Made by a program: the position numbers and the translations under genes. This document shows positions 30,800 to 64,000 of a DNA stretch of 64,000 nt, one piece after another. Source of the DNA: Dudresnaya verticillata (Eukaryota); NCBI GenBank assembly GCA_977862235.1, contig OZ374565.1, positions 2,232,001 to 2,296,000 of the forward strand, in the 5' to 3' direction. The notes below the pieces were generated by a model. It searched no databases, was not told the DNA's origin, and saw nothing but the letters and a program-made list of their open reading frames with translations. The stretch's first letter is position 1. Each line of letters begins with the position of its first letter.

Positions 30800-31008
30800 G
30801 AAGTGAAAGTGCCTTATAGGCACTTCCACCCCATATTGGCGCGTTCTTGAATATCTCAAGAACTATTGAAGCTTTTTTAAAACGGGCTTCTGATTCGTTT
30901 TGCGCGGGCCAAACAACGCCAAGAACACTCCCCTTAATATTCGCTTCTGTCTCTACTGTCCGGAGCTTCTACTTTTAGGGGGGTGCCCTATACTTATTTC
31001 CACCACTG
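30800..31008 (-). repeat. Right terminal inverted repeat of the Tc1-like element
   Basis: Reverse complement of 29438-29646. Confidence 0.9.
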
Positions 31009-37979: not shown

Positions 37980-38843
37980 ATTGTCGGTCGTATTGTTTAG
38001 TACGCCCTGGCGCTGGCCACCCTCAAGCCAGACCTGGAATCTATGTTGGACAGCGTACAGGCTATATTTTTCCGGACTGCTATCGGGCAACGAACACCGT
38101 ACATGCCTCCTATTAGGTTTCGTAAATTGCGAGCCCTCTTTCAAATCCCTAACCACTCACATTGGCATCAGCAGCTCCAACATGCTCTAGCCTACTGCGT
38201 CCGACAACTCTCCCGTAGCACCGATGCCGAAGTGTCTTGGGCAGCTTCATCGATGCTCTCCGCTGGCAACGTTTTGGCGACACCTGGCTTGCTGGGAGCA
38301 ATCCTCTACCCACCATCACGGCGCCAACTTCGTCATGCTCAGATTACAGCCTGGTAAACCTGGCGCCTTGCGTTTGTCGGCACGGGGCCGGCCCCTGTAT
38401 ACGCCCGGACCTACTTCGCACCTGTCATAGAACTGCCGTTAAAGTCATAGCCGTGCCCCTGCCATCGTATGCTGGCATTACGTTGGCATTTAGGGACATT
38501 CCCTATCCCTCCCGCGAGAGGGCGAAACGTAACTATTACCGCGCTGTTTGTGATCAATATGACATCGAGCTGCACCCGATGGTCATTGATATATATGGGC
38601 ACACCGGTGCTGGCTTCGACATCGGCGCTCAAGTCTTCGCCAACTTTCTTGCCGAAAAGAAAGGCACTTGCCCGCTTGCTGAGAAACATGCTCTCTTGAA
38701 TCGTCTTGTCTCGTTTGTTACGCAGTTTGTCGCCGTCATCGTCAATCATCGCCGCTTGACTCCTGCAGATTTGCCTCCTATGTAGTGGTTAAGAGTATCC
38801 AGTAGGGATACTATAACTTCATGATTTCGTAAAGTGACGTTTG
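36990..38843 (+). pseudogene. Degenerate RLE-type non-LTR retrotransposon relic (5' boundary approximate)
   Basis: Broken frames with RVAEPLR (cf. IAVGETIRR) and an RLE C-terminus RERAKRNYY...LHPMVIDIYG. The 5' part is duplicated at ~40830-41818. Confidence 0.6.
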
Positions 38844-39011
38844 CCCTCTAGTCAGGCCGCTGCGCGCCGCATCGCAACACCAGCTCCTACGACCGATTTT
38901 GGGCCTTCTTTGTCCACCCAAACCCACCTCTCTCCACACACTCACACGTATTGCACAAACCATCGATCAGATCTGCCGTTCTGGTCTCCTTCGCCCTACG
39001 CTCTCTGCTCC

Positions 39012-41818: not shown

Positions 41819-42130
41819 TTTGGCACGCCTTCTGGTCCACCCAAACCCACCTCTCAGAACGTCCATGAGCTGGTTGACTGTATTTATATTGAATCCTGCG
41901 TTTAGAGTAAATGGTATACGGTTATGGGTCATTACTTTAATGCTCCACGTGTACACTACAGTCGGATGGACATTGGACGCAGGAGTCTTTAGTCGATGAC
42001 GGGGAGTGCAGTTGATGGCGCATTTAAATAGGGGTACGGCGGGAACAGCAAGCACATTCGGCCATACTACGCAGACATGCTCCGTATCCCATCCCGAACT
42101 GCGAAGATAAGTCTCGTCAGGCTGGTTTAG

Positions 42131-45100
42131 TACTGAGGTGAGTTCAACTTTATAACAGGTGATCATATTCTAATATTTTTCGACGTACAATCTACTCTAG
42201 TATCACACCAAAGTTAAACCCCAACTCAAGACAACTTGCACATCTACACCTCCTGTTGGATCCCTTCCATCAGGCACTTGACGTTGTTCTGCACCAGTCG
42301 CGCCGCGTGCCTGTGGAACAGAGCCGCTCGCGAAACACCGCGAGTTACCATGGCCCGAGAAGCCACGGTATCCGCCAACTCTTGCATATACTTGTGCGCC
42401 TCCGGGTGCCAGCCACCTAGTGTGGTCATCGGCACCGGCACAAGTCTTGCCCCCGGTCCGGCAGCCTGGATGAAGCCACGGTAAGTCCGCACCTTGTCAG
42501 CGTGGGCGTTCTTCAGCGTCCCTTGCGGGTTTGTTATGCAGCTGAGAATGCGTTGTTCTGACGACAGTGGATGACTGATTGTGACGTCCAGGTAGTCCGT
42601 TCCTCCTTCTGTTCCAAGCGCCTTGATGTCCGGCCGATCCAGGTGAGCCCCCACAGGGCGGGGCTCCACAGTCGGGGTGCGTGTCGCACGTTTCAGATCC
42701 GAAGCCAGCAGACGAACCTGAGAGTCGTGGCGCCACGACCGAGGAGATCCGCTGTTCCGCATGCCGTTCGGACAAATCAGCAGATGGTCGCCGTGAACAT
42801 CCATCATCTTCTTGCACCCGGCCCGAGGACACTCCGTGTCGGGTTCCAGCAGTGGAATCCGACAGTAGAATCGAAGCCATACGCGGTAGTCCCGATCCGC
42901 AATGTACGTCTTCATGCCTGGTGCCGGCTGGCACTTGAGCCAGTCCTTGGCGCCCGGCGCGCCAAGGGAAGCTCGGAAAGCTTGCGTCCGCCTGTCCCCG
43001 AGCGGCAGCTCGGCTTGCACTTTCTTCAGTACCAACCGCGTCAAGTCCCTCTGGCGTGGGCACTCGTCGCTGTCGATCTTCTCCAGGTCCAGAGCATCCT
43101 CACTATGGCACTTGGCGCTCCAGTCTTCGTGCGCTTCTACTGCAAAAGGATCGTCAGAAAGAGCAGTGTTCACAGAAGCGGGTAAGATAGAACGCAGTAA
43201 GTTGCGGGTCAGTGAAAGGGACGCCAAAAACGCGCTCGAGTTCATGTCGCCAGCTCCCGAAATACCGATACCGAAGCTGGGCTCTTTCGTGCGCAGGGGA
43301 AGCTGAAGTTCGCGGAAGGTGTCCCTCGGTAGGACTCCTCCCACGAGCTTGCGCATGCAAGCCTCAATCTTCTGGTCGAAGAGCTCGGCGCCCTTCGCCG
43401 TGGCGGATGATGGAACTACTCGCAGCAGGTAGTTCAGCCGGCAGACTCCGGCACAGTTGCGGAGTAGAGTTATGGCCACGTGTAGGTCTTCGAGTCCCGA
43501 AATTGCGTCCAGCAGGGGCTGGATGGACTCGACATGGCCCTTCACGCTCTCCTCCATGTAGTTCTGCGTTCCAATCGGAGCCTGAAGTACTGTAGTGCCT
43601 TCTCCGTAGCTCTGCCCAAGATCCGACGGGTATGCAGCGCAGTCTTCTGGGTCGGGTGCAGTAGGCCACCAAACAGTACACTTGTCCATGCGCAGGTGGA
43701 AGCCGTAGCCGTTAGCTTCCTCGGAGTCAAAGAAGGACAGAACCTTCCTGAGTACGGCGTGTTTCGCCACGATGACGCCGTCGTCCAGGTAGAACAGTGA
43801 CAGCAGCAAGTTGTTTGCTGCCTCCGCTTGCTGATTGCGGCCCGAGCGCCGCAGGTCGGCGGTGAGTTCCTTCAACTGTTTGATCAGTGCCTGCAGCACC
43901 AAAGCAAACAGTAACGGCCCGAGCGGGTCACCTTGCTGTACACCAGTGACACTCCGCAGTAGAGTGTCACCCATCCACAGGTGCGGGCCCTCAGAGTCAT
44001 AACAGAATCTGACCCACGGTAGTAGTTCAGGCATATGTCGGCGGACCTCCTTCATGAATGCTTTGCGGCTGACAAGGTTGAAGGCATTCTTCAAGTCCAC
44101 TTGTAGCAACCCGTAGGACTTGTCATGGCCGTGAGACTTCTGCAGCTTCCGGACCGCGTGTACAATCGCTTCTGTGCCGCCCGAGGTTGCGACCCCGAGC
44201 TGAAGCGGTTCGAGGTATGCCTTGGCCTTGGGAGCGACTCTGGTCATGAGCATAGAGCTCACGAGTCGTCGGATTGTCTCTCCTACAGCAATGGGGCGGA
44301 CACCGCCGGTGCGCTTCTTCAGAGCCGTGAGAGGAGCGCTGGCAATCCAAGGCGACAGCTCCGCAGGTCCTGCGCCGCTGGCCAGCACGTTGACCATTTT
44401 GGTGAGCCCGCCAAGCAGGCCCGTGTGCTCGTGAGTGGTCGGGACTGAGAGCAGTTCCTGCAGATGCGTCGGTGATAGTCCTGTGCCCCCCGAGGCCGAA
44501 GCCCGGGGGAACTTGGCCACTGCTTTTCGTACTTCGTCGGCTGTGAAAGGCACAAAGTCAGGCATGGTCGGCAGCGGTTCGGACTGGTCAAGCTCGTGGT
44601 CCGCGTCGGTTTGCGGTACGGACTGTGGGTGCTTGTCCTTCATGGACTGTATCACAGAGTCTGTGGCTGGCGCGATTCCATCAGAGTCTAGAGCTGCTGC
44701 TGCCTTACTGTAGGCGCCCTCCTTTGCGAGGCGAAGGGCTCGTGAGGCGTTGATACGGCGTTGCTCTTCTGCGGAAGGCGCAGTCTGCTCACGGAATGTC
44801 GAGCCCTTCAAGGCCTCCTGCCATAGGGCGTCGTAATCCTTGAGTCCCCAGCGGCGGATTCGATCGCGGAAGGTGCCGATCGAGGACGCAGAGGTTGACG
44901 CGCCGGCCCTTGCACTCGCCGCGGGAGGATTGGACAAGACGGCTGCTGGAAAAAGCAGGAATGCAGTGAGCTCTTTGGTGGCTTCCTGAGAGTTGTTTGC
45001 GTTCGTAAAAGCCCATACCGTCTTGGACAGTGCGTCGCGCACCTCTGCGCGGACGCGAGACGGTATATGTGTGACCATAGGGATATGCGAGCGACAGATA

Positions 45101-46793
45101 TCTTCGACCGCCGGCAGAAGCTGCCCTCCTGGACCCCGCGCAGCGTGTCGGGTTTGCGCAGTTGGTACCACTTGAGTAGCTGGTACCGGTGCAGGAGGCG
45201 GCTCCTGGCTGTCCGGGATTCGTCGCGGGGCTGGCAGGATATCGTCCGCCGGCTCGCCGTCCTCGGGTTGCGTCTCCGTGACCGCGTCCAGAGCAGGAGT
45301 CTGTGATGGCGCGGCTACAGTTTCTTCACGGCTCGGTGTCGTCAATTGGTTGGACGGGACGTGGGAGAACGCCGGAGTGCGAGTGGCGGGACATGCGCTG
45401 CAATTCTTGTACCGCATACTGTACATGCCTTCACTGTTCATGCGGGAGCTACAGTGGGTAGGCATGTACTTGTTGTGAGTCACACAGTACCATACTCCAT
45501 AGTCCAGGAGCTGCTGCTTGAGAGGCTCGATGTCGGTCCTCGTCGGTGGTCCTCGCCTGCCAGGAACATGCATCTTCCGCAGGTGCATGAGTAGCGCTTC
45601 TACAGTAGGCAGTGAGGACGACTGGCAGCCCAGAGGACAGCTGGTACTGTTTGTCGGGCGGTGTTTTGCCGAAGGCATAAAGCATGGAGAGAGCCATACC
45701 TTCGGCATGTCGGGGTGCTGCTGACCAATCATGGTTACAGCGCTGGGTAAGGTACCTGTAAAGGTCCTCTACAGTAGGTTCCCTCGGGGCACAGACCTCC
45801 TAACCGGGACGCAAGCCTGTCGTCCGTCGTCAGTCTGTTCGGGACACCTCCAGAGGGTGCTACAGGTGGCCTTGCTGCGAGATGAAGGCCTCTTCGCAGC
45901 GTAGGGCGTGAGATTGCGCAATTTGCGCACGAGCTCGCGCAAAAGGGCGCACGTGTTAGCGTTCGCGCGTAGACTTATCGGACGTTCCCTTCCCTGCCGC
46001 AGCTGAGAAGAGTCTCTTCACTGCGGTCCTGTAACGCGCGGTACTTCTCGTTTGCACAAGCTCTCAATGGGGTCGCAGAACCACCGTTTACCTGTGAGTG
46101 CCCACAGGATTTTTGGCCTCCCCCGAAGGTTCGCTGGCAGGACGTTCGCTCGATCTTAGAAGGGGTGGTTTCAAAACAGGATCCACCAGGCTTAAGCCAC
46201 GTTACCCCAACTTCGACGTTGCTTGGCACGTTTCTGCGATGAGCTTGTGGGTCACGAGCCGCCTACCACTCAAGGTCGAGGGTCTTTGGCGATTCCCACA
46301 CTTGTAGGTCTCTCGGCACTTCCCGAAGGAAGATTTTACAGGACAAGCCTGGCCTTTACCAATCTGTCAGTTGAAGGGTGTGAAACCCCTCTGTCGACAG
46401 TCCACGGCAGCCTAGACAGAGTCTAGGCTGTGCCGGGTACAAGCAAAACGCGTACAGGGCCAGGGAAAGAAAGATAAGTCAGTGGGGCCCGGGCAAATTT
46501 CAAGGTGAGGGATCACCTTAAAAGTAAGCGCAAAATAGGAAACGCGTGACCGTCGGCGACGACGGCGGCGGCGACGGCGGCGACGACGACGGCGTCGCGG
46601 CGCAGATCGACGGCGCAAAAAGAGACAAAAGTAGACCGCGCTCGCCCGCCGTCAAAGGTGAAGGGCTGAAAAACCCCGCACCGACGCGCCGTCGCGCGCT
46701 CGAACAGGCGGCACCGCCGCCGAAAAGATCGGTGCAGAACTTGTTGAGATATCCGCGAAACAAAATTTTCGGCAGATCGCGAGGGAGTCGGAG
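42131..46793 (-). mobile_element. CRE-clade non-LTR retrotransposon, array unit 1 (full length, ~4.66 kb)
   Basis: About 1.06-kb 5' UTR, single RT-RLE ORF, ~110-nt 3' UTR ending in ...CTCACCTCAGTA. No poly(A). Confidence 0.95.
42244..45732 (-). CDS. CRE-type retrotransposon protein: C2H2 Zn finger, reverse transcriptase, CCHC knuckle, restriction-like endonuclease (1162 aa)
   Basis: Zn finger CPLGC...HLRKMH. RT motifs RPIAVGE, QLGV, VDLKNAFN, GVQQGDPLGPLLF, YLDD. Knuckle CPRAGC...HLLIC. Endonuclease motifs RHD, RPDI...YLDVTISHP, KVRTY, GGW. Confidence 0.97.
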   Translation of the reverse strand: MIGQQHPDMPKVWLSPCFMPSAKHRPTNSTSCPLGCQSSSLPTVEALLMHLRKMHVPGRRGPPTRTDIEPLKQQLLDYGVWYCVTHNKYMPTHCSSRMNSEGMYSMRYKNCSACPATRTPAFSHVPSNQLTTPSREETVAAPSQTPALDAVTETQPEDGEPADDILPAPRRIPDSQEPPPAPVPATQVVPTAQTRHAARGPGGQLLPAVEDICRSHIPMVTHIPSRVRAEVRDALSKTVWAFTNANNSQEATKELTAFLLFPAAVLSNPPAASARAGASTSASSIGTFRDRIRRWGLKDYDALWQEALKGSTFREQTAPSAEEQRRINASRALRLAKEGAYSKAAAALDSDGIAPATDSVIQSMKDKHPQSVPQTDADHELDQSEPLPTMPDFVPFTADEVRKAVAKFPRASASGGTGLSPTHLQELLSVPTTHEHTGLLGGLTKMVNVLASGAGPAELSPWIASAPLTALKKRTGGVRPIAVGETIRRLVSSMLMTRVAPKAKAYLEPLQLGVATSGGTEAIVHAVRKLQKSHGHDKSYGLLQVDLKNAFNLVSRKAFMKEVRRHMPELLPWVRFCYDSEGPHLWMGDTLLRSVTGVQQGDPLGPLLFALVLQALIKQLKELTADLRRSGRNQQAEAANNLLLSLFYLDDGVIVAKHAVLRKVLSFFDSEEANGYGFHLRMDKCTVWWPTAPDPEDCAAYPSDLGQSYGEGTTVLQAPIGTQNYMEESVKGHVESIQPLLDAISGLEDLHVAITLLRNCAGVCRLNYLLRVVPSSATAKGAELFDQKIEACMRKLVGGVLPRDTFRELQLPLRTKEPSFGIGISGAGDMNSSAFLASLSLTRNLLRSILPASVNTALSDDPFAVEAHEDWSAKCHSEDALDLEKIDSDECPRQRDLTRLVLKKVQAELPLGDRRTQAFRASLGAPGAKDWLKCQPAPGMKTYIADRDYRVWLRFYCRIPLLEPDTECPRAGCKKMMDVHGDHLLICPNGMRNSGSPRSWRHDSQVRLLASDLKRATRTPTVEPRPVGAHLDRPDIKALGTEGGTDYLDVTISHPLSSEQRILSCITNPQGTLKNAHADKVRTYRGFIQAAGPGARLVPVPMTTLGGWHPEAHKYMQELADTVASRAMVTRGVSRAALFHRHAARLVQNNVKCLMEGIQQEV

Positions 46794-49700
46794 TACTGAG
46801 GTCTGAGGTGAGTTCAACTTTATAACAGGTGATCATATTCTAATATTTGTCGACGTACAATCTACTGTAGTATCACAACAAAGTTAAACCCCAACTCAAA
46901 ACAACTTGCACATCTACACCTCCTGTTGGATCCCTTCCATCAGGCACTTGACGTTGTTCTGCACCAGTCGCGCCGCGTGCCTGTGGAATAGAGCCGCTCG
47001 CGAAACACCGCGAGTTACCATGGCCCGAGAAGCCACAGTATCCGCCAACTCTTGCATGTACTTGTGCGCCTCCGGGTGCCAGCCACCTAGTGTGGTCATC
47101 GGCACCGGCACAAGTCTTGCCCCCGGTCCGGCAGCCTGGATGAAGCCACGGTAAGTCCGCACCTTGTCAGCGTGGGCGTTCTTCAGCGTCCCTTGCGGGT
47201 TTGTTATGCAGCTGAGAATGCGTTGTTCTGACGACAGTGGATGACTGATTGTGACGTCCAGGTAGTCCGTTCCTCCTTCTGTTCCAAGCGCCTTGATGTC
47301 CGGCCGATCCAGGTGAGCCCCCACAGGGCGGGGCTCCACAATCGGGGTGCGTGTCGCACGTTTCAGATCCGAAGCCAGCAGACGAACCTGAGAGTCGTGG
47401 CGCCACGACCGAGGAGATCCGCTGTTCCGCATGCCGTTCGGACAAATCAGCAGATGGTCGCCGTGAACATCCATCATCTTCTTGCACCCGGCCCGAGGAC
47501 ACTCCGTGTCGGGTTCCAGCAGTGGAATCCGACAGTAGAATCGAAGCCATACGCGGTAGTCCCGATCCGCAATGTACGTCTTCATGCCTGGTGCCGGCTG
47601 GCACTTGAGCCAGTCCTTGGCGCCCGGCGCGCCAAGGGAAGCTCGGAAAGCTTGCGTCCGCCTGTCCCCGAGCGGCAGCTCGGCTTGCACTTTCTTCAGT
47701 ACCAACCGCGTCAAGTCCCTCTGGCGTGGGCACTCGTCGCTGTCGATCTTCTCCAGGTCCAGAGCATCCTCACTATGGCACTTGGCGCTCCAGTCTTCGT
47801 GCGCTTCTACTGCAAAAGGATCGTCAGAAAGAGCAGTGTTCACAGAAGCGGGTAAGATAGAACGCAGTAAGTTGCGGGTCAGTGAAAGGGACGCCAAAAA
47901 CGCGCTCGAGTTCATGTCGCCAGCTCCCGAAATACCGATACCGAAGCTGGGCTCTTTCGTGCGCAGGGGAAGCTGAAGTTCGCGGAAGGTGTCCCTCGGT
48001 AGGACTCCTCCCACGAGCTTGCGCATGCAAGCCTCAATCTTCTGGTCGAAGAGCTCGGCGCCCTTCGCCGTGGCGGATGATGGAACTACTCGCAGCAGGT
48101 AGTTCAGCCGGCAGACTCCGGCACAGTTGCGGAGTAGAGTGATGGCCACGTGTAGGTCTTCTAGTCCCGAAATTGCGTCCAGCAGGGGCTGGATGGACTC
48201 GACATGGCCATTCACGCTCTCCTCCATGTAGTTCTGCGTTCCAATCGGAGCCTGAAGTACTGTAGTGCCTTCTCCGTAGCTCTGCCCAAGATCCGATGGG
48301 TAGGCAGCGCAGTCTTCTGGGTCGGGTGCAGTAGGCCACCAAACAGTACACTTGTCCATGCGCAGGTGGAAGCCATAGCCCTTAGCTTCCTCGGAGTCAA
48401 AGAAGGACAGAACCTTCCTGAGTACGGCGTGTTTCGCCACGATGACGCCGTCGTCCAGGTAGAACAGTGACAGCAGCAAGTTGTTCGCCCCCTCCGCTTG
48501 CTGATTGCGGCCCGAGCGCCGCAGGTCGGCGGTGAGTTCCTTCAACTGTTTGGTCAGTGCCTGCAGCACCAAAGCAAACAGTAACGGCCCGAGCGGGTCA
48601 CCTTGCTGTACACCAGTGACACTCCGCAGTAGAGTGTCACCCATCCACAGGTGCGGGCCCTCAGAGTCATAACAGAATCTGACCCACGGTAGTAGTTCAG
48701 GCATATGTCGGCGGACCTCCTTCATGAATGCTTTGCGGCTGACAAGGTTGAAGGCATTCTTCAAGTCCACTTGTAGCAACCCGTAGGACTTGTCATGGCC
48801 GTGAGACTTCTGCAGCTTCCGGACCGCGTGTACAATCGCTTCTGTGCCGCCCGAGGTTGCGACCCCGAGCTGAAGCGGTTCGAGGTATGCCTTGGCCTTG
48901 GGAGCGACTCTGGTCATGAGCATAGAGCTCACGAGTCGTCGGATTGTCTCTCCTACAGCAATGGGGCGGACACCGCCGGTGCGCTTCTTCAGAGCCGTGA
49001 GAGGAGCGCTGGCAATCCAAGGCGACAGCTCCGCAGGTCCTGCGCCGCTGGCCAGCACGTTGACCATTTTGGTGAGCCCGCCAAGCAGGCCCGTGTGCTC
49101 GTGAGTGGTCGGGACTGAGAGCAGTTCCTGCAGATGCGTCGGTGATAGTCCTGTGCCCCCCGAGGCCGAAGCCCGGGGGAACTTGGCCACTGCTTTTCGT
49201 ACTTCGTCGGCTGTGAAAGGCACAAAGTCAGGCATGGTCGGCAGCGGTTCGGACTGGTCAAGCTCGTGGTCCGCGTCGGTTTGCGGTACGGACTGTGGGT
49301 GCTTGTCCTTCATGGACTGTATCACAGAGTCTGTGGCTGGCGCGATTCCATCAGAGTCTAGAGCTGCTGCTGCCTTACTGTAGGCGCCCTCCTTTGCGAG
49401 GCGAAGGGCTCGTGAGGCGTTGATACGGCGTTGCTCTTCTGCGGAAGGCGCAGTCTGCTCACGGAATGTCGAGCCCTTCAAGGCCTCCTGCCATAGGGCG
49501 TCGTAATCCTTGAGTCCCCAGCGGCGGATTCGATCGCGGAAGGTGCCGATCGAGGACGCAGAGGTTGACGCGCCGGCCCTTGCACTCGCCGCGGGAGGAT
49601 TGGACAAGACGGCTGCTGGAAAAAGCAGGAATGCAGTGAGCTCTTTGGTGGCTTCCTGAGAGTTGTTTGCGTTCGTAAAAGCCCATACCGTCTTGGACAG

Positions 49701-51457
49701 TGCGTCGCGCACCTCTGCGCGGACGCGAGACGGTATATGTGTGACCATAGGGATATGCGAGCGACAGATATCTTCGACCGCCGGCAGAAGCTGCCCTCCT
49801 GGACCCCGCGCAGCGTGTCGGGTTTGCGCAGTTGGTACCACTTGAGTAGCTGGTACCGGTGCAGGAGGCGGCTCCTGGCTGTCCGGGATTCGTCGCGGGG
49901 CTGGCAGGATATCGTCCGCCGGCTCGCCGTCCTCGGGTTGCGTCTCCGTGACCGCGTCCAGAGCAGGAGTCTGTGATGGCGCGGCTACAGTTTCTTCACG
50001 GCTCGGTGTCGTCAATTGGTTGGACGGGACGTGGGAGAACGCCGGAGTGCGAGTGGCGGGACATGCGCTGCAATTCTTGTACCGCATACTGTACATGCCT
50101 TCACTGTTCATGCGGGAGCTACAGTGGGTAGGCATGTACTTGTTGTGAGTCACACAGTACCATACTCCATAGTCCAGGAGCTGCTGCTTGAGAGGCTCGA
50201 TGTCGGTCCTCGTCGGTGGTCCTCGCCTGCCAGGAACATGCATCTTCCGCAGGTGCATGAGTAGCGCTTCTACAGTAGGCAGTGAGGACGACTGGCAGCC
50301 CAGAGGACAGCTGGTACTGTTTGTCGGGCGGTGTTTTGCCGAAGGCATAAAGCATGGAGAGAGCCATACCTTCGGCATGTCGGGGTGCTGCTGACCAATC
50401 ATGGTTACAGCGCTGGGTAAGGTACCTGTAAAGGTCCTCTACAGTAGGTTCCCTCGGGGCACAGACCTCCTAACCGGGACGCAAGCCTGTCGTCCGTCGT
50501 CAGTCTGTTCGGGACACCTCCAGAGGGTGCTACAGGTGGCCTTGCTGCGAGATGAAGGCCTCTTCGCAGCGTAGGGCGTGAGATTGCGCAATTTGCGCAC
50601 GAGCTCGCGCAAAAGGGCGCACGTGTTAGCGTTCGCGCGTAGACTTATCGGACGTTCCCTTCCCTGCCGCAGCTGAGAAGAGTCTCTTCACTGCGGTCCT
50701 GTAACGCGCGGTACTTCTCGTTTGCACAAGCTCTCAATGGGGTCGCAGAACCACCGTTTACCTGTGAGTGCCCACAGGATTTTTGGCCTCCCCCGAAGGT
50801 TCGCTGGCAGGACGTTCGCTCGATCTTAGAAGGGGTGGTTTCAAAACAGGATCCACCAGGCTTAAGCCACGTTACCCCAACTTCGACGTTGCTTGGCACG
50901 TTTCTGCGATGAGCTTGTGGGTCACGAGCCGCCTACCACTCAAGGTCGAGGGTCTTTGGCGATTCCCACACTTGTAGGTCTCTCGGCACTTCCCGAAGGA
51001 AGATTTTACAGGACAAGCCTGGCCTTTACCAATCTGTCAGTTGAAGGGTGTGAAACCCCTCTGTCGACAGTCCACGGCAGCCTAGACAGAGTCTAGGCTG
51101 TGCCGGGTACAAGCAAAACGCGTACAGGGCCAGGGAAAGAAAGATAAGTCAGTGGGGCCCGGGCAAATTTCAAGGTGAGGGATCACCTTAAAAGTAAGCG
51201 CAAAATAGGAAACGCGTGACCGTCGGCGACGACGGCGGCGGCGACGGCGGCGACGACGACGGCGTCGCGGCGCAGATCGACGGCGCAAAAAGAGACAAAA
51301 GTAGACCGCGCTCGCCCGCCGTCAAAGGTGAAGGGCTGAAAAACCCCGCACCGACGCGCCGTCGCGCGCTCGAACAGGCGGCACCGCCGCCGAAAAGATC
51401 GGTGCAGAACTTGTTGAGATATCCGCGAAACAAAATTTTCGGCAGATCGCGAGGGAG
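46794..51457 (-). mobile_element. CRE-clade non-LTR retrotransposon, array unit 2
   Basis: Near-identical to unit 1, directly abutting head-to-tail. 5' end about 6 nt shorter. Confidence 0.95.
46914..50402 (-). CDS. CRE-type RT-RLE protein (1162 aa), unit 2
   Basis: Same motifs as unit 1; intact ORF. Confidence 0.97.
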   Translation of the reverse strand: MIGQQHPDMPKVWLSPCFMPSAKHRPTNSTSCPLGCQSSSLPTVEALLMHLRKMHVPGRRGPPTRTDIEPLKQQLLDYGVWYCVTHNKYMPTHCSSRMNSEGMYSMRYKNCSACPATRTPAFSHVPSNQLTTPSREETVAAPSQTPALDAVTETQPEDGEPADDILPAPRRIPDSQEPPPAPVPATQVVPTAQTRHAARGPGGQLLPAVEDICRSHIPMVTHIPSRVRAEVRDALSKTVWAFTNANNSQEATKELTAFLLFPAAVLSNPPAASARAGASTSASSIGTFRDRIRRWGLKDYDALWQEALKGSTFREQTAPSAEEQRRINASRALRLAKEGAYSKAAAALDSDGIAPATDSVIQSMKDKHPQSVPQTDADHELDQSEPLPTMPDFVPFTADEVRKAVAKFPRASASGGTGLSPTHLQELLSVPTTHEHTGLLGGLTKMVNVLASGAGPAELSPWIASAPLTALKKRTGGVRPIAVGETIRRLVSSMLMTRVAPKAKAYLEPLQLGVATSGGTEAIVHAVRKLQKSHGHDKSYGLLQVDLKNAFNLVSRKAFMKEVRRHMPELLPWVRFCYDSEGPHLWMGDTLLRSVTGVQQGDPLGPLLFALVLQALTKQLKELTADLRRSGRNQQAEGANNLLLSLFYLDDGVIVAKHAVLRKVLSFFDSEEAKGYGFHLRMDKCTVWWPTAPDPEDCAAYPSDLGQSYGEGTTVLQAPIGTQNYMEESVNGHVESIQPLLDAISGLEDLHVAITLLRNCAGVCRLNYLLRVVPSSATAKGAELFDQKIEACMRKLVGGVLPRDTFRELQLPLRTKEPSFGIGISGAGDMNSSAFLASLSLTRNLLRSILPASVNTALSDDPFAVEAHEDWSAKCHSEDALDLEKIDSDECPRQRDLTRLVLKKVQAELPLGDRRTQAFRASLGAPGAKDWLKCQPAPGMKTYIADRDYRVWLRFYCRIPLLEPDTECPRAGCKKMMDVHGDHLLICPNGMRNSGSPRSWRHDSQVRLLASDLKRATRTPIVEPRPVGAHLDRPDIKALGTEGGTDYLDVTISHPLSSEQRILSCITNPQGTLKNAHADKVRTYRGFIQAAGPGARLVPVPMTTLGGWHPEAHKYMQELADTVASRAMVTRGVSRAALFHRHAARLVQNNVKCLMEGIQQEV

Positions 51458-56135: not shown

Positions 56136-59100
56136 GTCTGAGGTGAGTTCAACTTTATAACAGGGGACCATATTCTAATATTTGTCGACGTACAATCTAC
56201 TGTAGTATCACAACAAAGTTAAACCCCCAACTCAAAACAACTTGCACATCTACACCTCCTGTTGGATCCCTTCCATCAGGCACTTGACGTTGTTCTGTAC
56301 CAGTCGCGCCGCGTGCCTGTGGAATAGAGCCGCTCGCGAAACACCGCGAGTTACCATGGCCCGAGAAGCCACGGTATCCGCCAACTCTTGCATATACTTG
56401 TGCGCCTCCGGGTGCCAGCCACCTAGTGTGGTCATCGGCACCGGCACAAGCCTTGCCCCCGGTCCGGCAGCCTGGATGAAGCCACGGTAAGTCCGCACCT
56501 TGTCAGCGTGGGCGTTCTTCAGCGTCCCTTGCGGGTTTGTTATGCAGCTGAGAATGCGTTGTTCTGACGACAGTGGATGACTTATTGTGACGTCCAGGTA
56601 GTCCGTTCCTCCTTCTGTTCCAAGCGCCTTGATGTCTGGCCGATCCAGGTGAGCCCCCACCGGGCGGGGCTCCACAATCGGGGTGCGTGTCGCACGTTTC
56701 AGATCCGAAGCCAGCAGACGAACCTGAGAGTCGTGGCGCCACGACCGAGGAGAACCGCTGTTCCGCATGCCGTTCGGACAAATCAGCAGATGGTCGCCGT
56801 GAACATCCATCTTCTTCTTGCACCCGGCCCGAGGACACTCCGTGTCGGGTTCCAGCAGTGGGATCTGACAGTAGAATCGAAGCCATACGCGGTAGTCCCG
56901 ATCCGCAATGTACGTCTTCATGCCTGGTGCCGGCTGGCACTTGAGCCAGTCCTTGGCGCCCGGCACGCCAAGGGAAGCTCGGAAAGCTTGAGTCCGCCTG
57001 TCCCCGAGCGGCAGCTCGGCTTGCACTTTCTTCAGTACCAACCGCGTCAAGTCCCTCTGGCGCGGGCACTCGTCGCTGTCGATCTTCTCCAGGTCCAGGG
57101 CATCCTCACTATGGCACTTGGCGCTCCAGGCTTCGTGCGCTTCTACTGCAAAAGGATCGTCAGAAAGAGCAGTGTTCACAGAAGCGGGTAAGATAGAACG
57201 CAGTAAGTTGCGGGTCAGTGAAAGGGATGCCAAAAACGCGCTCGAGTTCATGTCTCCAGCTCCCGAAATACCGATACCGAAGCTGGGCTCTTTCGTGCGC
57301 AGGGGAAGCTGAAGTTCGCGGAAGGTGTCCCTCGGTAGGACTCCTCCCACGAGCTTGCGCGTGCAAGCCTCAATCTTCTGGTCGAAGAGCTCGGCGCCCT
57401 TTGCCGTGGCGGATGATGGAACTACTCGCAGCAGGTAGTTCAGCCGGCAGACTCCGGCACAGTTGCGGAGTAGAGTGATGGCCACGTGTAGGTCTTCTAG
57501 TCCCGAAATTGCGTCCAGCAGGGGCTGGATGGACTCGACATGGCCATTCACGCTCTCCTCCATGTAGTTCTGCGTTCCAATCGGAGCCTGAAGTACTGTA
57601 GTGCCTTCTCCGTAGCTCTGCCCAAGATCCGACGGGTAGGCAGCGCAGTCTTCTGGGTCGGGTGCAGTAGGCCACCAAACAGTACACTTGTCCATGCGCA
57701 GGTGGAAGCCATAGCCCTTAGCTTCCTCGGAGTCAAAGAAGGACAGAACCTTCCTGAGTACGGCGTGTTTCGCCACGATGACGCCGTCGTCCAGGTAGAA
57801 CAGTGACAGCAGCAAGTTGTTCGCCCCCTCCGCTTGCTGATTGCGGCCCGAGCGCCGCAGGTCGGCGGTGAGTTCCTTCAACTGTTTGATCAGTGCCTGC
57901 AGCACCAAAGCAAACAGTAACGGCCCGAGCGGGTCACCTTGCTGTACACCAGTGACACTCCGCAGTAGAGTGTCACCCATCCACAGGTGCGGGCCCTCAG
58001 AGTCATAACAGTATCTGACCCACGGTAGTAGTTCAGGCATATGTCGGCGGACCTCCTTCATGAATGCTTTGCGGCTGACAAGGTTGAAGGCATTCTTCAA
58101 GTCCACTTGTAGCAACCCGTAGGACTTGTCATGGCCGTGAGACTTCTGCAGCTTCCGGACCGCGTGTACAATGGCTTCTGTGCCGCCCGAGGTTGCGACC
58201 CCGAGCTGAAGCGGTTCGAGGTATGCCTTGGCCTTGGGAGCGACTCTGGTCATGAGCATAGAGCTCACGAGTCGTCGGATTGTCTCTCCTACAGCAATGG
58301 GGCGGACACCGCCGGTGCGCTTCTTCAGAGCCGTGAGAGGAGCGCTGGCAATCCAAGGCGACAGCTCCGCAGGTCCTGCGCCGCTGGCCAGCACGTTGAC
58401 CATTTTGGTGAGCCCGCCAAGCAGGCCCGTGTGCTCGTGAGTGGTCGGGACTGAGAGCAGTTCCTGCAGATGCGTCGGTGATAGTCCTGTTCCCCCCGAG
58501 GCCGAAGCCCGGGGGAACTTGGCCACTGCTTTTCGTACTTCGTCGGCTGTGAAAGGCACGAAGTCAGGCATGGTCGGCAGCGGTTCGGACTGGTCAAGCT
58601 CGTGGTCCGCGTCGGTTTGCGGTACGGACTGCGGGTGCTTGTCCTTCATGGACTGTATCACAGAGTCTGTGGCTGGGGCGATTCCATCAGAGTCTAGAGC
58701 TGCTGCTGCCTTACTGTAGGCGCCCTCCTTTGCAAGGCGAAGGGCTCGTGAGGCATTGATACGGCGTTGCTCTTCTGCGGAAGGCGCAGTCTGCTCACGG
58801 AATGTCGAGCCCTTCAAGGCCTCCTGCCATAGGGCGTCGTAATCCTTGAGTCCCCAGCGTCGGATTCGATCGCGGAAGGTGCCGATCGAGGACGCAGAGG
58901 TTGACGCGCTGGCCCTTGCACTCGCCGCGGGAGGATTGGACAAGACGGCTGCTGGAAAAAGCAGGAATGCAGTGAGCTCTTTGGTGGCTTCCTGAGAGTT
59001 GGTTGCGTTCGTAAAAGCCCATACCGTCTTGGACAGTGCGTCGCGCACCTCGGCGCGGACGCGAGACGGTATATGTGTGACCATAGGGATATGCGAGCGA

Positions 59101-60787
59101 CAGATGTCTTCGACCGCCGGCAGAAGCTGCCCTCCTGGACCCCGCGCAACGGGTGGGGTTTGCGCAGTTGGTACCTCTCGAGTAGCAGGTACCGGTGCAG
59201 GAGGCGGCTCCTGGCTGTCCGGGATTCGTCGCGGGGCTGGCAGGATATCGTCCGCTGGCTCGCCGTCCTCGGGTTGCGTCTCCGTGACCGCGTCCAGAGC
59301 AGGAGACTGTGATGGCGCGGCTACAGTTTCTTCACGGCTCGGTGTCGTCAATTGGTTGGACGGGACGTGGGAGAACGCCGGAGTGCGAGTAGCGGGACAT
59401 GCGCTGCAATTCTTGTACCGCATACTGTACATGCCTTCACTGTTCATGCGGGAGCTACAGTGGGTGGGCATGTACTTGTTGTGAGTCACACAGTACCATA
59501 CTCCATAGTCCAGGAGCTGCTGCTTGAGAGGCTCGATGTCGGTCCTCGTCGGTGGTCCTCGCCTGCCAGGAACATGCATCTTCCGCAGGTGCATGAGTAG
59601 CGCTTCTACAGTAGGCAGTGAGGACGACTGGCAGCCCAGAGGACAGCTGGTACTGTTTGTCGGGCGGTGTTTTGCCGAAGGCATAAAGCATGGAGAGAGC
59701 CATACCTTCGGCATGTCGGGGTGCTGCTGACCAATCATGGTTACAGCGCTGGGTAAGGTACCTGTAAAGGTCCTCTACAGTAGGTTCCCTCGGGGCACAG
59801 ACCTCCTAACCGGGACGCAAGCCTGTCGTCCGTCGTCAGTCTGTTCGGGACACCTCCAGAGGGTGCTACAGGTGGCCTTGCTGCGAGATGAGGGCCTCTT
59901 CGCAGCGTAGGGCGCGAGATCGCGCACTTTGCGCACGAGCTCGCGCAAAAGGGCGCGCGTGTTAGCGTTCGTGCGCGCAGAGTTATCGGACGTTCCCTTC
60001 CCTGCCGCAGCTGAGAAGACTCTCTTCACTGCGGTCCTGTAACGCGCGGTACTTCTCGTTTGCACAAGCTCTCAATGGGGTCGCAGAACCACCGTTTACC
60101 TGTGAGTGCCCACAGGATTTTTGGCCTCCCCCGAAGGTTCGCTGGCAGGACGTTCGCTCGATCTTAGAAGGGGTGGTTTCAAAACAGGATCCACCAGGCT
60201 TAAGCCACGTTACCCCAACTTCGACGTTGCTTGGCACGTTTCTGCGATGAGCTTGTGGGTCACGAGCCGCCTACCACTCAAGGTCGAGGGTCTTTGGCGA
60301 TTCCCACACTTGTAGGTCTCTCGGCACTTCCCGAAGGAAGATTTTACAGGACAAGCCTGGCCTTTACCAATCTGTCAGTTGAAGGGTGTGAAACCCCTCT
60401 GTCGACAGTCCACGGCAGCCTAGACAGAGTCTAGGCTGTGCCGGGTACAAGCAAAACGCGTACAGGGCCAGGGAAAGAAAGATAAGTCAGTGGGGCCCGG
60501 GCAAATTTCAAGGTGAGGGATCACCTTAAAAGTAAGCGCAAAATAGGAAACGCGTGACCGTCGGCGACGACGGCGGCGGCGACGGCGGCGACGACGACGG
60601 CGTCGCGGCGCAGATCGGCGGCGCGGAAAGAGACAAAAGTAGACCGCGCTCGCCCGCCCGCGAAGGTGAAGGGCTGAAAAACCCCGCACCGACGCGCCGT
60701 CAGGCGCTCGAACAGGCGGCACCGCCGCCGAAAAGATCGGTGCAGAACTTGTTGAGATATCCGCGAAACAAAAATTTCGGCAGATCG
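56136..60787 (-). mobile_element. CRE-clade non-LTR retrotransposon, array unit 4 (variant subfamily)
   Basis: Same structure with diagnostic substitutions. 5' end 14 nt shorter. Confidence 0.95.
56250..59738 (-). CDS. CRE-type RT-RLE protein (1162 aa), unit 4
   Basis: Same motifs; intact ORF. Confidence 0.97.
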   Translation of the reverse strand: MIGQQHPDMPKVWLSPCFMPSAKHRPTNSTSCPLGCQSSSLPTVEALLMHLRKMHVPGRRGPPTRTDIEPLKQQLLDYGVWYCVTHNKYMPTHCSSRMNSEGMYSMRYKNCSACPATRTPAFSHVPSNQLTTPSREETVAAPSQSPALDAVTETQPEDGEPADDILPAPRRIPDSQEPPPAPVPATREVPTAQTPPVARGPGGQLLPAVEDICRSHIPMVTHIPSRVRAEVRDALSKTVWAFTNATNSQEATKELTAFLLFPAAVLSNPPAASARASASTSASSIGTFRDRIRRWGLKDYDALWQEALKGSTFREQTAPSAEEQRRINASRALRLAKEGAYSKAAAALDSDGIAPATDSVIQSMKDKHPQSVPQTDADHELDQSEPLPTMPDFVPFTADEVRKAVAKFPRASASGGTGLSPTHLQELLSVPTTHEHTGLLGGLTKMVNVLASGAGPAELSPWIASAPLTALKKRTGGVRPIAVGETIRRLVSSMLMTRVAPKAKAYLEPLQLGVATSGGTEAIVHAVRKLQKSHGHDKSYGLLQVDLKNAFNLVSRKAFMKEVRRHMPELLPWVRYCYDSEGPHLWMGDTLLRSVTGVQQGDPLGPLLFALVLQALIKQLKELTADLRRSGRNQQAEGANNLLLSLFYLDDGVIVAKHAVLRKVLSFFDSEEAKGYGFHLRMDKCTVWWPTAPDPEDCAAYPSDLGQSYGEGTTVLQAPIGTQNYMEESVNGHVESIQPLLDAISGLEDLHVAITLLRNCAGVCRLNYLLRVVPSSATAKGAELFDQKIEACTRKLVGGVLPRDTFRELQLPLRTKEPSFGIGISGAGDMNSSAFLASLSLTRNLLRSILPASVNTALSDDPFAVEAHEAWSAKCHSEDALDLEKIDSDECPRQRDLTRLVLKKVQAELPLGDRRTQAFRASLGVPGAKDWLKCQPAPGMKTYIADRDYRVWLRFYCQIPLLEPDTECPRAGCKKKMDVHGDHLLICPNGMRNSGSPRSWRHDSQVRLLASDLKRATRTPIVEPRPVGAHLDRPDIKALGTEGGTDYLDVTISHPLSSEQRILSCITNPQGTLKNAHADKVRTYRGFIQAAGPGARLVPVPMTTLGGWHPEAHKYMQELADTVASRAMVTRGVSRAALFHRHAARLVQNNVKCLMEGIQQEV

Positions 60788-63700
60788 TACTGAGGTCTGA
60801 GGTGAGTTCAACTTTATAACAGGTGACCATATTCTAATATTTGTCGACGTACAATCTACTGTAGTATCACAACAAAGTTAAACCCCAACTCAAAACAACC
60901 TGCACATCTACACCTCCTGTTGGATCCCTTCCATCAGGCACTTGACGTTGTTCTGCACCAGTCGCGCCGCGTGCCTGTGGAACAGAGCCGCTCGCGAAAC
61001 ACCGCGAGTTACCATGGCCCGAGAAGCCACGGTATCCGCCAACTCTTGCATATACTTGTGCGCCTCCGGGTGCCAGCCACCTAGTGTGGTCATCGGCACC
61101 GGCACAAGCCTTGCCCCCGGTCCGGCAGCCTGGATGAAGCCACGGTAAGTCCGCACCTTGTCAGCGTGGGCGTTCTTCAGCGTCCCTTGCGGGTTTGTTA
61201 TGCAGCTGAGAATGCGTTGTTCTGACGACAGTGGATGACTGATTGTGACGTCCAGGTAGTCCGTTCCTCCTTCTGTTCCAAGCGCCTTGATGTCCGGCCG
61301 ATCCAAGTGAGCCCCCACAGGGCGGGGCTCCACAATCGGGGTGCGTGTCGCACGTTTCAGATCCGAAGCCAGCAGACGAACCTGAGAGTCGTGGCGCCAC
61401 GACCGAGGAGATCCGCTGTTCCGCATGCCGTTCGGACAAATCAGCAGATGGTCGCCGTGAACATCCATCATCTTCTTGCACCCGGCCCGAGGACACTCCG
61501 TGTCGGGTTCCAGCAGTGGAATCCGACAGTAGAATCGAAGCCATACGCGGTAGTCCCGATCCGCAATGTACGTCTTCATGCCTGGTGCCGGCTGGCACTT
61601 GAGCCAGTCCTTGGCGCCCGGCACGCCAAGGGAAGCTCGGAAAGCTTGCGTCCGCCTGTCCCCGAGCGGCAGCTCGGCTTGCACTTTCTTCAGAACCAAC
61701 CGCGTCAAGTCCCGCTGGCGCGGGCACTCGTCGCTGTCGATCTTCTCCAGGTCCAGGGCATCCTCACTATGGCACTTGGCGCTCCAGTCTTCGTGCGCTT
61801 CTACTGCAAAAGGATCGTCAGAAAGAGCAGTGTTCACAGAAGCGGGTAAGATAGAACGCAGTAAGTTGCGGGTCAGTGAAAGGGACGCCAAAAACGCGCT
61901 CGAGTTCATGTCGCCAGCTCCCGAAATACCGATTCCGAAGCTGGGCTCTTTCGTGCGCAGGGGAAGCTGAAGTTCGCGGAAGGTGTCCCTCGGTAGGACT
62001 CCTCCCACGAGCTTGCGCATGCAAGCCTCAATCTTCTGGTCGAAGAGCTCGGCGCCCTTTGCCGTGGCGGATGATGGAACTACTCGCAGCAGGTAGTTCA
62101 GCCGGCAGACTCCGGCACAGTTGCGGAGTAGAGTGATGGCCACGTGTAGGTCTTCTAGTCCCGAAATTGCGTCCAGCAGGGGCTGGATGGACTCGACATG
62201 GCCATTCACGCTCTCCTCCATGTAGTTCTGCGTTCCAATCGGAGCCTGAAGTACTGTAGTGCCTTCTCCGTAGCTCTGCCCAAGATCCGACGGGTAGGCA
62301 GCGCAGTCTTCTGGGTCGGGTGCAGTAGGCCACCAAACAGTACACTTGTCCATGCGCAGGTGGAAGCCATAGCCCTTAGCTTCCTCGGAGTCAAAGAAGG
62401 ACAGAACCTTCCTGAGTACGGCGTGTTTCGCCACGATGACGCCGTCGTCCAGGTAGAACAGTGACAGCAGCAAGTTGTTCGCCCCCTCCGCTTGCTGATT
62501 GCGGCCCGAGCGCCGCAGGTCGGCGGTGAGTTCCTTCAACTGTTTGATCAGTGCCTGCAGCACCAAAGCAAACAGTAACGGCCCGAGCGGGTCACCTTGC
62601 TGTACACCAGTGACACTCCGCAGTAGAGTGTCACCCATCCACAGGTGCGGGCCCTCAGAGTCATAACAGTATCTGACCCACGGTAGTAGTTCAGGCATAT
62701 GTCGGCGGACCTCCTTCATGAATGCTTTGCGGCTGACAAGGTTGAAGGCATTCTTCAAGTCCACTTGTAGCAACCCGTAGGACTTGTCATGGCCGTGAGA
62801 CTTCTGCAGCTTCCGGACCGCGTGTACAATGGCTTCTGTGCCGCCCGAGGTTGCGACCCCGAGCTGAAGCGGTTCGAGGTATGCCTTGGCCTTGGGAGCG
62901 ACTCTGGTCATGAGCATAGAGCTCACGAGTCGTCGGATTGTCTCTCCTACAGCAATGGGGCGGACACCGCCGGTGCGCTTCTTCAGAGCCGTGAGAGGAG
63001 CGCTGGCAATCCAAGGCGACAGCTCCGCAGGTCCTGCGCCGCTGGCCAGCACGTTGACCATTTTGGTGAGCCCGCCAAGCAGGCCCGTGTGCTCGTGAGT
63101 GGTCGGGACTGAGAGCAGTTCCTGCAGATGGGTCGGTGATAGTCCTGTTCCCCCCGAGGCCGAAGCCCGGGGGAACTTGGCCACTGCTTTTCGTACTTCG
63201 TCGGCTGTGAAAGGCACGAAGTCAGGCATGGTCGGCAGCGGTTCGGACTGGTCAAGCTCGTGGTCCGCGTCGGTTTGCGGTACGGACTGCGGGTGCTTGT
63301 CCTTCATGGACTGTATCACAGAGTCTGTGGCTGGGGCGATTCCATCAGAGTCTAGAGCTGCTGCTGCCTTACTGTAGGCGCCCTCCTTTGCAAGGCGAAG
63401 GGCTCGTGAGGCATTGATACGGCGTTGCTCTTCTGCGGAAGGCGCAGTCTGCTCACGGAATGTCGAGCCCTTCAAGGCCTCCTGCCATAGGGCGTCGTAA
63501 TCCTTGAGTCCCCAGCGTCGGATTCGATCGCGGAAGGTGCCGATCGAGGACGCAGAGGTTGACGCGCTGGCCCTTGCACTCGCGGCGGGAGGATTGGACA
63601 AGACGGCTGCTGGAAAAAGCAGGAATGCAGTGAGCTCTTTGGTGGCTTCCTGAGAGTTGGTTGCGTTCGTAAAAGCCCATACCGTCTTGGACAGTGCGTC

Positions 63701-64000
63701 GCGCACCTCGGCGCGGACGCGAGACGGTATATGTGTGACCATAGGGATATGCGAGCGACAGATGTCTTCGACCGCCGGCAGAAGCTGCCCTCCTGGACCC
63801 CGCGCAACGGGTGGGGTTTGCGCAGTTGGTACCTCTCGAGTAGCAGGTACCGGTGCAGGAGGCGGCTCCTGGCTGTCCGGGATTCGTCGCGGGGCTGGCA
63901 GGATATCGTCCGCTGGCTCGCCGTCCTCGGGTTGCGTCTCCGTGACCGCGTCCAGAGCAGGAGACTGTGATGGCGCGGCTACAGTTTCTTCACGGCTCGG
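60788..64000 (-). mobile_element. CRE-clade non-LTR retrotransposon, array unit 5 (runs off the window)
   Basis: Same 3' UTR and ORF; shares variant residues with unit 4. Confidence 0.95.
60908..64000 (-). CDS. CRE-type RT-RLE protein, unit 5 (N-terminus outside window)
   Basis: Same motifs; frame open to the window edge. Confidence 0.95.
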   Translation of the reverse strand, partial: PSREETVAAPSQSPALDAVTETQPEDGEPADDILPAPRRIPDSQEPPPAPVPATREVPTAQTPPVARGPGGQLLPAVEDICRSHIPMVTHIPSRVRAEVRDALSKTVWAFTNATNSQEATKELTAFLLFPAAVLSNPPAASARASASTSASSIGTFRDRIRRWGLKDYDALWQEALKGSTFREQTAPSAEEQRRINASRALRLAKEGAYSKAAAALDSDGIAPATDSVIQSMKDKHPQSVPQTDADHELDQSEPLPTMPDFVPFTADEVRKAVAKFPRASASGGTGLSPTHLQELLSVPTTHEHTGLLGGLTKMVNVLASGAGPAELSPWIASAPLTALKKRTGGVRPIAVGETIRRLVSSMLMTRVAPKAKAYLEPLQLGVATSGGTEAIVHAVRKLQKSHGHDKSYGLLQVDLKNAFNLVSRKAFMKEVRRHMPELLPWVRYCYDSEGPHLWMGDTLLRSVTGVQQGDPLGPLLFALVLQALIKQLKELTADLRRSGRNQQAEGANNLLLSLFYLDDGVIVAKHAVLRKVLSFFDSEEAKGYGFHLRMDKCTVWWPTAPDPEDCAAYPSDLGQSYGEGTTVLQAPIGTQNYMEESVNGHVESIQPLLDAISGLEDLHVAITLLRNCAGVCRLNYLLRVVPSSATAKGAELFDQKIEACMRKLVGGVLPRDTFRELQLPLRTKEPSFGIGISGAGDMNSSAFLASLSLTRNLLRSILPASVNTALSDDPFAVEAHEDWSAKCHSEDALDLEKIDSDECPRQRDLTRLVLKKVQAELPLGDRRTQAFRASLGVPGAKDWLKCQPAPGMKTYIADRDYRVWLRFYCRIPLLEPDTECPRAGCKKMMDVHGDHLLICPNGMRNSGSPRSWRHDSQVRLLASDLKRATRTPIVEPRPVGAHLDRPDIKALGTEGGTDYLDVTISHPLSSEQRILSCITNPQGTLKNAHADKVRTYRGFIQAAGPGARLVPVPMTTLGGWHPEAHKYMQELADTVASRAMVTRGVSRAALFHRHAARLVQNNVKCLMEGIQQEV

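What the first reader, a model, noticed from the sequence alone, without database searches (positions are those of the whole stretch)
42131..64000. Candidate retrotransposon-built telomere: polarized head-to-tail array of intact CRE-clade RT-RLE elements
Seen: at least 5 units (ORF-to-ORF spacings 4670, 4672, 4664 and 4658 bp), all on the minus strand with intact ORFs. They abut with no spacer, TSD, poly(A) or canonical TTAGGG/TTTAGGG repeat, and their 3' ends face the gene zone across a decayed, duplicated region. Established: reverse transcription primed from a chromosome 3'-OH gives exactly this polarity, as in Drosophila HeT-A/TART/TAHRE (Jockey clade). Terminal or subterminal arrays are also known for Cryptococcus Cnl1 and Magnaporthe MoTeR (telomere-repeat associated), Giardia GilM/GilT and Chlorella Zepp. 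Inference: this is a right chromosome end extended by serial addition of a CRE element, possibly replacing or supplementing telomerase in a probably red-algal genome.
Basis: partly seen in the sequence, partly recalled or inferred. Interest (0 to 1): 0.93.

Follow-up and report, generated by a model that had tools for sequence, protein, structure and literature searches.

The report
Retrotransposon stack inside a 5S gene
At least five intact copies of a jumping gene sit head-to-tail inside a broken 5S ribosomal RNA gene of what is likely a red seaweed, each copy separated by short pieces of that 5S gene, so this is likely a gene-targeting retrotransposon that re-inserts at its own site rather than a telomere.

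Summary
The array is real: five 4.66-4.67 kb units, minus strand, each with an open reverse-transcriptase/restriction-like-endonuclease frame. The array starts inside a 5S rRNA gene (Rfam RF00001 from 42054, plus strand): the first 86-89 nt of 5S abut the 3' end of unit 1. And the units do not abut cleanly: 4 of 4 internal junctions carry the 7-mer that ends the 5S fragment plus 4-19 further, mostly 5S-derived, bases, different at each junction. Units come from several selected lineages (40 of 59 variable codons synonymous). Best reading (0.72): a site-specific element, likely CRE clade, that targets 5S rDNA antisense and stacks by repeated insertion, as R1 does in 28S and Utopia in U2. A chromosome-end reading stays open (0.15) because the window ends inside unit 5 and no genome is held. 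Host likely a florideophyte red alga. Ten literature searches found no restriction-like-endonuclease element targeting 5S, but Repbase and Fell 2025 could not be read. Specificity rests on one locus.

The parts
42023..42029 (+). AT-rich TATA-like box about 25-31 nt upstream of the 5S start
   Evidence: position; role as a Pol III upstream element is inferred from general knowledge
42054..42139 (+). 5' part (nt 1-86) of a 5S rRNA gene, cut by the array; identity to a related intact 5S runs on to 42142 (nt 89)
   Evidence: Rfam RF00001 hit and alignment; loose end behind 42142 in contigs of run X1 shows how a related 5S continues; helix I does not form
42140..46791 (-). Unit 1, full length: about 104-nt 3' UTR, ORF 42244-45732, about 1.06-kb 5' UTR
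42244..45732 (-). 1162-aa ORF: N-terminal C2H2-type finger and a second Cys/His module, RT (YLDD), CCHC knuckle, RHD and PD..D..K endonuclease motifs
   Evidence: Pfam RVT_1 E 7e-16; motifs conserved in the 23-sequence alignment; R2 proteins are the top sequence and fold matches
46480..46791 (-). Structured 5'-terminal part of the 5' UTR
   Evidence: 46480-46810 folds at z -3.3, 0 of 100 shuffles as stable; no Rfam family
46792..46809 (+). Junction 1: 11-nt copy of the 5S flank plus the 7-mer
46810..51455 (-). Unit 2, full length (5' end about 6 nt shorter); ORF 46914-50402
51456..51481 (+). Junction 2: 9-nt 5S piece, 3 other bases, then the 7-mer twice
51482..56133 (-). Unit 3, full length; ORF 51586-55074; one substitution from unit 2
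56134..56144 (+). Junction 3: 4-5 nt 5S piece plus the 7-mer
56145..60786 (-). Unit 4, full length (5' end 13 nt shorter); ORF 56250-59738
60787..60803 (+). Junction 4: 10-nt copy of the 5S flank plus the 7-mer
60804..64000 (-). Unit 5, cut by the window end; ORF open from 60908 to the edge

Best explanation
Five near-identical RT-endonuclease retrotransposons are stacked antisense inside a 5S rRNA gene with 5S-derived bases at every junction, and they likely got there by repeated site-specific target-primed reverse transcription at that gene. Shown: domain content, intact frames, the 5S fragment, the junction sequences, several selected lineages. Inferred: the endonuclease nicks the 5S sense strand at about nt 86 (79-89 cannot be told apart because the element's 3' end shares bases with the target); that 3'-OH primes cDNA from the element RNA; a second nick about 7 nt away leaves the invariant 7-bp duplication; sloppy 5' joining (template jumps onto target DNA, or 5S-derived flanks carried on the RNA) adds the variable 4-19 nt. 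The duplication rebuilds the cut site, so the next copy lands in the same place. Template switching or unequal exchange likely mixed the units afterwards. Predicted: the missing 3' third of the 5S gene lies at the far end of the array, beyond the window.
For: 5S hit ends exactly where unit 1 begins; related intact 5S copies continue differently after 42142 (2 records of run X1). CTGAGGT stands at 4 of 4 internal junctions but only twice in both strands of the first 42.1 kb. The 11-mer ending the 5S fragment has 4 matches (up to 1 mismatch) in the window and all 4 are at junctions (the count alone is reached by 3 of 100 shuffles, the positions carry the weight). At 3 of 4 internal junctions the extra piece reaches into 5S bases outside the 7-mer (11, 9 and 10 nt). 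Units 2 and 3 differ by 1 base in 4663 yet have different junctions, so each join was made separately. 40 of 59 variable codons are synonymous, p 6e-12 to 1e-8 depending on transition bias: copies come from several working lineages, and all carry the same flank. Endonuclease motifs intact. Published parallels: R1 tandem arrays separated by the target duplication (PMC2718515); Utopia-1_NVit inserted in tandem in U2 genes (PMC4640811).
Against: Only one 5S locus is seen, so family-wide specificity is inferred. The 3' part of the 5S gene is not in the window, so the array is not shown to be interstitial. The two subfamily-level relatives with a readable 3' flank (L002, L032; 39-41% identity) have no 5S there, and none of 129 loci held a 5S match (47 had 300 nt or more of 3' flank); they are distant, but they show that 5S targeting is not general in the family. 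The junction pieces could also be RNA-borne 3' tails joined to a free end, which needs no target DNA at later steps. A plain duplication model does not by itself explain why the 7-mer is doubled internally and single at the 5S junction.
Confidence: 0.72

Rival explanations
1. Chromosome end: the element cut a subterminal 5S gene, the distal piece was lost, and copies were then added to the free end, so the array now is, or leads into, the telomere.
For: Polarity fits (5' ends distal). The junction pieces can be read as 3' read-through tails of the RNA joined by 1-3 nt microhomology to the previous 5' end. Gene-poor, duplicated 9 kb upstream. Telomerase activity was not detected in three red algae tested (PMC3622300 passages). 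Cnl1 arrays lie at chromosome ends (PMC12139950 passages). Giardia GilM/GilT arrays next to rDNA are a recalled parallel, not read here.
Against: No terminal feature in the window. All 4 visible 5' ends are complete to within 13 nt, where an end that erodes between additions should leave deep truncations (inference). The proximal unit is as intact as the others. The florideophyte Bostrychia has a simple repeat at 14 chromosome ends (bioRxiv 10.1101/2025.02.11.637652 passage). End addition needs no endonuclease (PMC4700185 passage), yet the endonuclease motifs are kept and the start point is a precise site in a multicopy gene.
Confidence: 0.15
2. One or two insertions into 5S, then growth mainly by RT jumping from RNA to RNA in one reaction or by unequal crossing-over, without repeated cutting of the target.
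For: Units are mosaics: unit 1 equals units 2/3 over its 5' 2.9 kb but has private variants only in its 3' 1.7 kb; unit 4 shares its 5' part with unit 5 and has private variants only in its 3' 1.2 kb. End-to-end template jumping is known for R2 RT (PMC13708176 passage).
Against: Unequal exchange copies junctions unchanged, but 4 of 4 junctions differ; PMC2718515 uses the same test, identical junctions marking amplification of one event. Still requires a 5S-directed first insertion.
Confidence: 0.1
3. Assembly artefact that stacked dispersed copies.
For: Units 2 and 3 are 99.98% identical; no read support could be obtained.
Against: Each junction has its own sequence and units carry distinct, mostly synonymous variants.
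Confidence: 0.03

Closest known systems
CRE-clade RLE retrotransposons (CRE1/SLACS in spliced-leader genes, Cnl1 and MoTeR at telomeric repeats)
   Same: Single ORF with N-terminal zinc finger, RT, CCHC knuckle and restriction-like endonuclease; insertion in a multicopy target; Cnl1 forms arrays and makes duplications of variable length (PMC12139950 passages). The RT motifs around RPIAVGE and QQGDPLGP look CRE-like (recalled, not tested).
   Different: Target here is a 5S rRNA gene; no telomeric repeat at any junction; forms its own well-supported subfamily of 27 unnamed proteins (support 0.999 in a FastTree tree of 127 RT domains).
R1 tandem arrays in Drosophila 28S rDNA (PMC2718515) and Utopia tandem insertions in U2 genes (PMC4640811)
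   Same: Works like these: head-to-tail copies inside a multicopy RNA gene, separated by target-derived bases; R1 also shows junctions with a duplication plus extra target sequence.
   Different: R1 uses an AP-type endonuclease (recalled) and 28S; Utopia is NeSL-related and targets U2. Here every internal junction has the doubled form.
Mutsu of zebrafish (PMC5340908) and Dada-5S DNA transposons (PMC8869645)
   Same: Sequence-specific insertion into 5S rRNA genes.
   Different: Mutsu has two ORFs, a poly(A) tail and target sites in the 5' half of 5S (Tx1 clade with AP endonuclease is recalled); Dada is a DNA transposon. This element has one ORF, a restriction-like endonuclease, no poly(A), and cuts at nt 79-89, in a red alga.
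Drosophila HeT-A/TART/TAHRE telomeres
   Same: Head-to-tail polarity with 5' ends pointing away from the gene zone.
   Different: Here the array starts at a defined site in a 5S gene, junctions hold target bases, 5' ends are nearly complete, and terminal position is not shown.

Membership tests
RLE-type non-LTR retrotransposon | RT domain with catalytic aspartates | tested here: met
   RVT_1 E 7e-16; YLDD conserved in alignment A1
RLE-type non-LTR retrotransposon | C-terminal CCHC knuckle, RHD and PD..D..K endonuclease motifs | tested here: met
   motifs in alignment; weak profile alignment to the same region of an R2 protein; whole-length fold match, R2 structures fill ranks 1-7
CRE clade | Single ORF with N-terminal zinc finger(s) | tested here: met
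   C-x3-C..H-x4-H at residues 32-56, shared with P0004 and P0006; that this defines CRE is recalled and it is shared with other RLE clades
CRE clade | RT groups with CRE1, SLACS, Cnl1, MoTeR in a tree | tested here: inconclusive
   no named CRE protein came back, so the tree has no reference; only 16-17% identity to R2
CRE clade | Insertion into a multicopy target sequence | tested here: met
   one locus only: 5S gene and target bases at 4 of 4 internal junctions
R2 clade | 28S rDNA target site | tested here: not met
   no LSU rRNA hit in the window
Mutsu | Two ORFs and 3' poly(A) | tested here: not met
   one ORF, no poly(A); Mutsu features from PMC5340908
Target-site tandem array (R1/Utopia type) | Copies separated by target-derived duplication | tested here: met
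Target-site tandem array (R1/Utopia type) | Rest of the target gene at the far end of the array | not testable with these tools
   window ends in unit 5; no genome; run X1 has no contig on the 5' junction
Retrotransposon telomere (HeT-A type) | Head-to-tail, 5' ends distal | tested here: met
   if the right side is distal
Retrotransposon telomere (HeT-A type) | Array reaches the chromosome end and occurs at most ends; telomerase absent | not testable with these tools
   no genome held
Retrotransposon telomere (HeT-A type) | Variably eroded 5' ends, joined without target sequence (recalled feature) | tested here: not met
   4 of 4 5' ends within 13 nt; target bases at each junction

The most novel reading that the evidence does not exclude
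A 5S-cutting retrotransposon broke a red-algal chromosome at a subterminal 5S gene and its copies now build the chromosome end, a route from a gene-targeting element to a telomere in a lineage where telomerase assays have failed.
Probability: 0.12. Interest if true: 0.92.

Novelty: new variant of a known kind. Interest (0 to 1): 0.58.

Why it matters
If the best reading holds, it adds 5S rDNA to the targets of the early-branching, restriction-like-endonuclease retrotransposons; the only 5S-specific elements found in the papers searched were Mutsu and Dada-5S of fish. It would be a separate origin of 5S targeting, at a different site, in red algae. The copies are intact and recently active, and the target is a short, readable site in a multicopy gene, so the protein is a direct candidate for biochemistry of target recognition outside R2 and for RNA-templated gene insertion at a new multicopy site. 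It also warns that a polarized array at a window or contig edge is not by itself evidence of a telomere. If the array does reach the chromosome end, it would bear on the open question of how many red algae maintain their telomeres.

Tried and rejected
No whole genome is held, so no genome-wide mapping, TERT search or look beyond 64000. Sequencing runs: one DNA run with 0.06 of the words, no RNA holder listed; laid twice, it gave only short low-depth pieces and no contig on an element-5S or element-element junction, which is no evidence either way. Related loci: none in viral contigs; 80 in metagenomes and 49 in prokaryote bins, no 5S in any by blastn/nhmmer, nor by Rfam in the 20 scanned. The 20-nt 5S flank had no match in viral contigs. 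No ribozyme or other Rfam family in the 5' UTR; 3' UTR not unusually structured (z -0.6). Rejected: the 5S piece as a SINE3 or Cassandra-like head (it is antisense to the element, occurs once, has an upstream AT-rich box); a complete chimeric 5S made of the fragment plus the 3' UTR (helix I does not form, z +1.2); the upstream decayed pieces as older members of the same array (opposite strand, best profile E 1.5); strict growth at the distal 5' end with duplications copied from the local flank (junction 4 holds 5S bases that junction 3 lacks; holds only if units were not reshuffled). No tRNA genes. Earlier scan notes: nothing for this genome or protein; one unrelated satellite note. Fell et al. 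2025 and the MoTeR paper were not held.

Full report
Observation. Self-BLAST and an alignment of the units give 98.39-99.98% identity. The protein has an RT domain (Pfam RVT_1, E 7e-16), an N-terminal C2H2-type finger, a CCHC knuckle and RHD and PD..D..K motifs conserved among 22 close relatives. The AlphaFold model (pLDDT 82) matches R2 proteins best over its whole length (ranks 1-7), as does the sequence profile. So the element is a complete RT plus restriction-like-endonuclease retrotransposon. CRE-clade membership is likely from recalled motifs but could not be tested: no named CRE protein was returned, and the tree of 127 of 130 selected RT domains only shows a distinct 27-member subfamily. 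A neighbouring peptidase gene has Gracilariales proteins as its best named relatives at about 50% identity, so the host is likely a florideophyte red alga.

The only Rfam hit in the window is a 5S rRNA gene starting at 42054 on the plus strand. The good part of the alignment ends at about 42142, and 42140 is the first base of the repeated unit. Contigs of a public run that carry related 5S genes match up to 42142 and then continue with ordinary 5S sequence instead of the element (2 records, 5-8 differences in 39-52 nt, so relatives rather than this gene). The fragment has an AT-rich box about 30 nt upstream and cannot close helix I. The 3' part of the gene is not in the window. Unit 1 is therefore inserted antisense into a 5S gene at nt 79-89.

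Junctions. Every internal junction ends in CTGAGGT, the last seven bases of the 5S fragment; the 7-mer occurs only twice in both strands of the first 42.1 kb. In front of it stands a second piece that again copies the 5S flank: 11 nt at junction 1, 9 nt plus 3 other bases plus another 7-mer at junction 2, 4-5 nt at junction 3, 10 nt at junction 4. The 5' ends of units 1-4 differ by 0, about 6, 0 and 13 nt. Units 2 and 3 differ by one base in 4663 but have different junctions. Of 59 variable codons in the stretch shared by all five ORFs, 40 are synonymous, against 25-32% expected. The units thus derive from several working lineages, were joined one at a time, and all carry the 5S flank. Variant patterns are also mosaic along units 1 and 4, so some recombination or template switching has occurred.

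Mechanism. Inferred from the anatomy and from established target-primed reverse transcription: the endonuclease nicks the 5S sense strand near nt 86, the 3'-OH primes cDNA, and a second nick about 7 nt away leaves a short duplication that rebuilds the site. The variable extra piece likely comes from imprecise 5' joining, either jumps of the RT onto target DNA or target bases carried on the RNA. If duplications are copied from the local flank, growth next to the 5S 5' part fits all junctions, which would make the proximal unit the youngest, the reverse of a telomere; strict growth at the far end fails at junction 4 versus 3 unless units were reshuffled. This order is not settled.

Comparison. 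Stage and Eickbush (PMC2718515; passages and section 13 read) describe R1 arrays at the normal 28S site, copies separated by the duplication, and junctions with a duplication plus extra target sequence. Kojima and Jurka (PMC4640811; passages) report tandem Utopia insertions in U2 genes and list CRE among mostly target-specific clades. For 5S targets I found Mutsu (PMC5340908; passages and section 9) and Dada-5S (PMC8869645; passages); a 2024 review lists Mutsu and a FISH-based Rex3 case and states that it knows no insertion within the 5S gene (PMC10946416; passages). Ten full-text searches (listings seen) showed no restriction-like-endonuclease element targeting 5S and no such array in red algae. 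Repbase entries and Fell et al. 2025 with its supplement, which surveyed CRE elements (PMC13580325 passage), could not be seen and may hold such a family.

Telomere reading. For: polarity; Cnl1 arrays at chromosome ends (PMC12139950 passages); failed telomerase assays in three red algae (PMC3622300 passages); junction pieces that could be RNA tails joined to a free end. Against: no terminal feature in view; near-complete 5' ends; a precise start in a multicopy gene; a simple telomeric repeat in the florideophyte Bostrychia (preprint passage). Passages from the Ahnfeltia preprint, the Gracilaria vermiculophylla paper, TeloBase, PMC4700185, PMC5029228 and PMC13708176 gave no red-algal case either way. 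The far end cannot be seen.

Results against my reading. The two subfamily-level relatives with a readable 3' flank (L002, L032) are not next to 5S, and 0 of 129 loci held a 5S match. Specificity therefore rests on this one locus and its four internal junctions.

Verdict. Real, recently active array; most likely a 5S-targeting RLE retrotransposon stacked at its own site (0.72); chromosome end 0.15; growth mainly by template jumping or unequal exchange 0.10; artefact 0.03. New variant of a known kind; interest 0.58.

Noticed in passing
window 42176-42180 (+): Unit 1 alone has a run of five T, 123-127 nt from the 5S start; the other four units have a G in it. It would stop a Pol III transcript from the broken 5S gene at about 5S length and limit antisense read-through. 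One base change, may be chance.
   Followed up: partly
window 46495-46520 and the same place in units 2-4: An 11-bp hairpin in the 5' UTR contains a 14-nt stretch like the 5S sequence across the insertion point. Half of the match follows from hairpin symmetry, so chance is not excluded; could be a relic junction or a target mimic.
   Followed up: partly
window 35132-37983 and 38971-41822; 33527-33861 inverted at 38511-38845: Recent duplications (99.7% and 94%) holding decayed RT-like and endonuclease-like pieces of another non-LTR family, mostly on the plus strand; read by eye, no Pfam support.
   Followed up: partly
window 29438-31008: Tc1/mariner-type transposon: 209-bp terminal inverted repeats at 98.6% and a 297-aa DDE_3 transposase ORF at 29781-30674; looks recent.
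   Followed up: no
window 3000-9100: Very GC-rich island (63-82% GC against about 48% around) with proline/alanine-rich repeats, two ANTH-domain ORFs and an aquaporin (MIP) ORF.
   Followed up: no
L002 about 6800-7500; protein P0006: Some relatives carry an N-terminal Ulp1-like protease (PF02902 on P0006; by eye in L002) that the window's element lacks.
   Followed up: no
L081-L129: 49 loci with eukaryote-type RT-endonuclease elements lie in assemblies labelled as bacterial genomes, likely host contamination of those bins.
   Followed up: no
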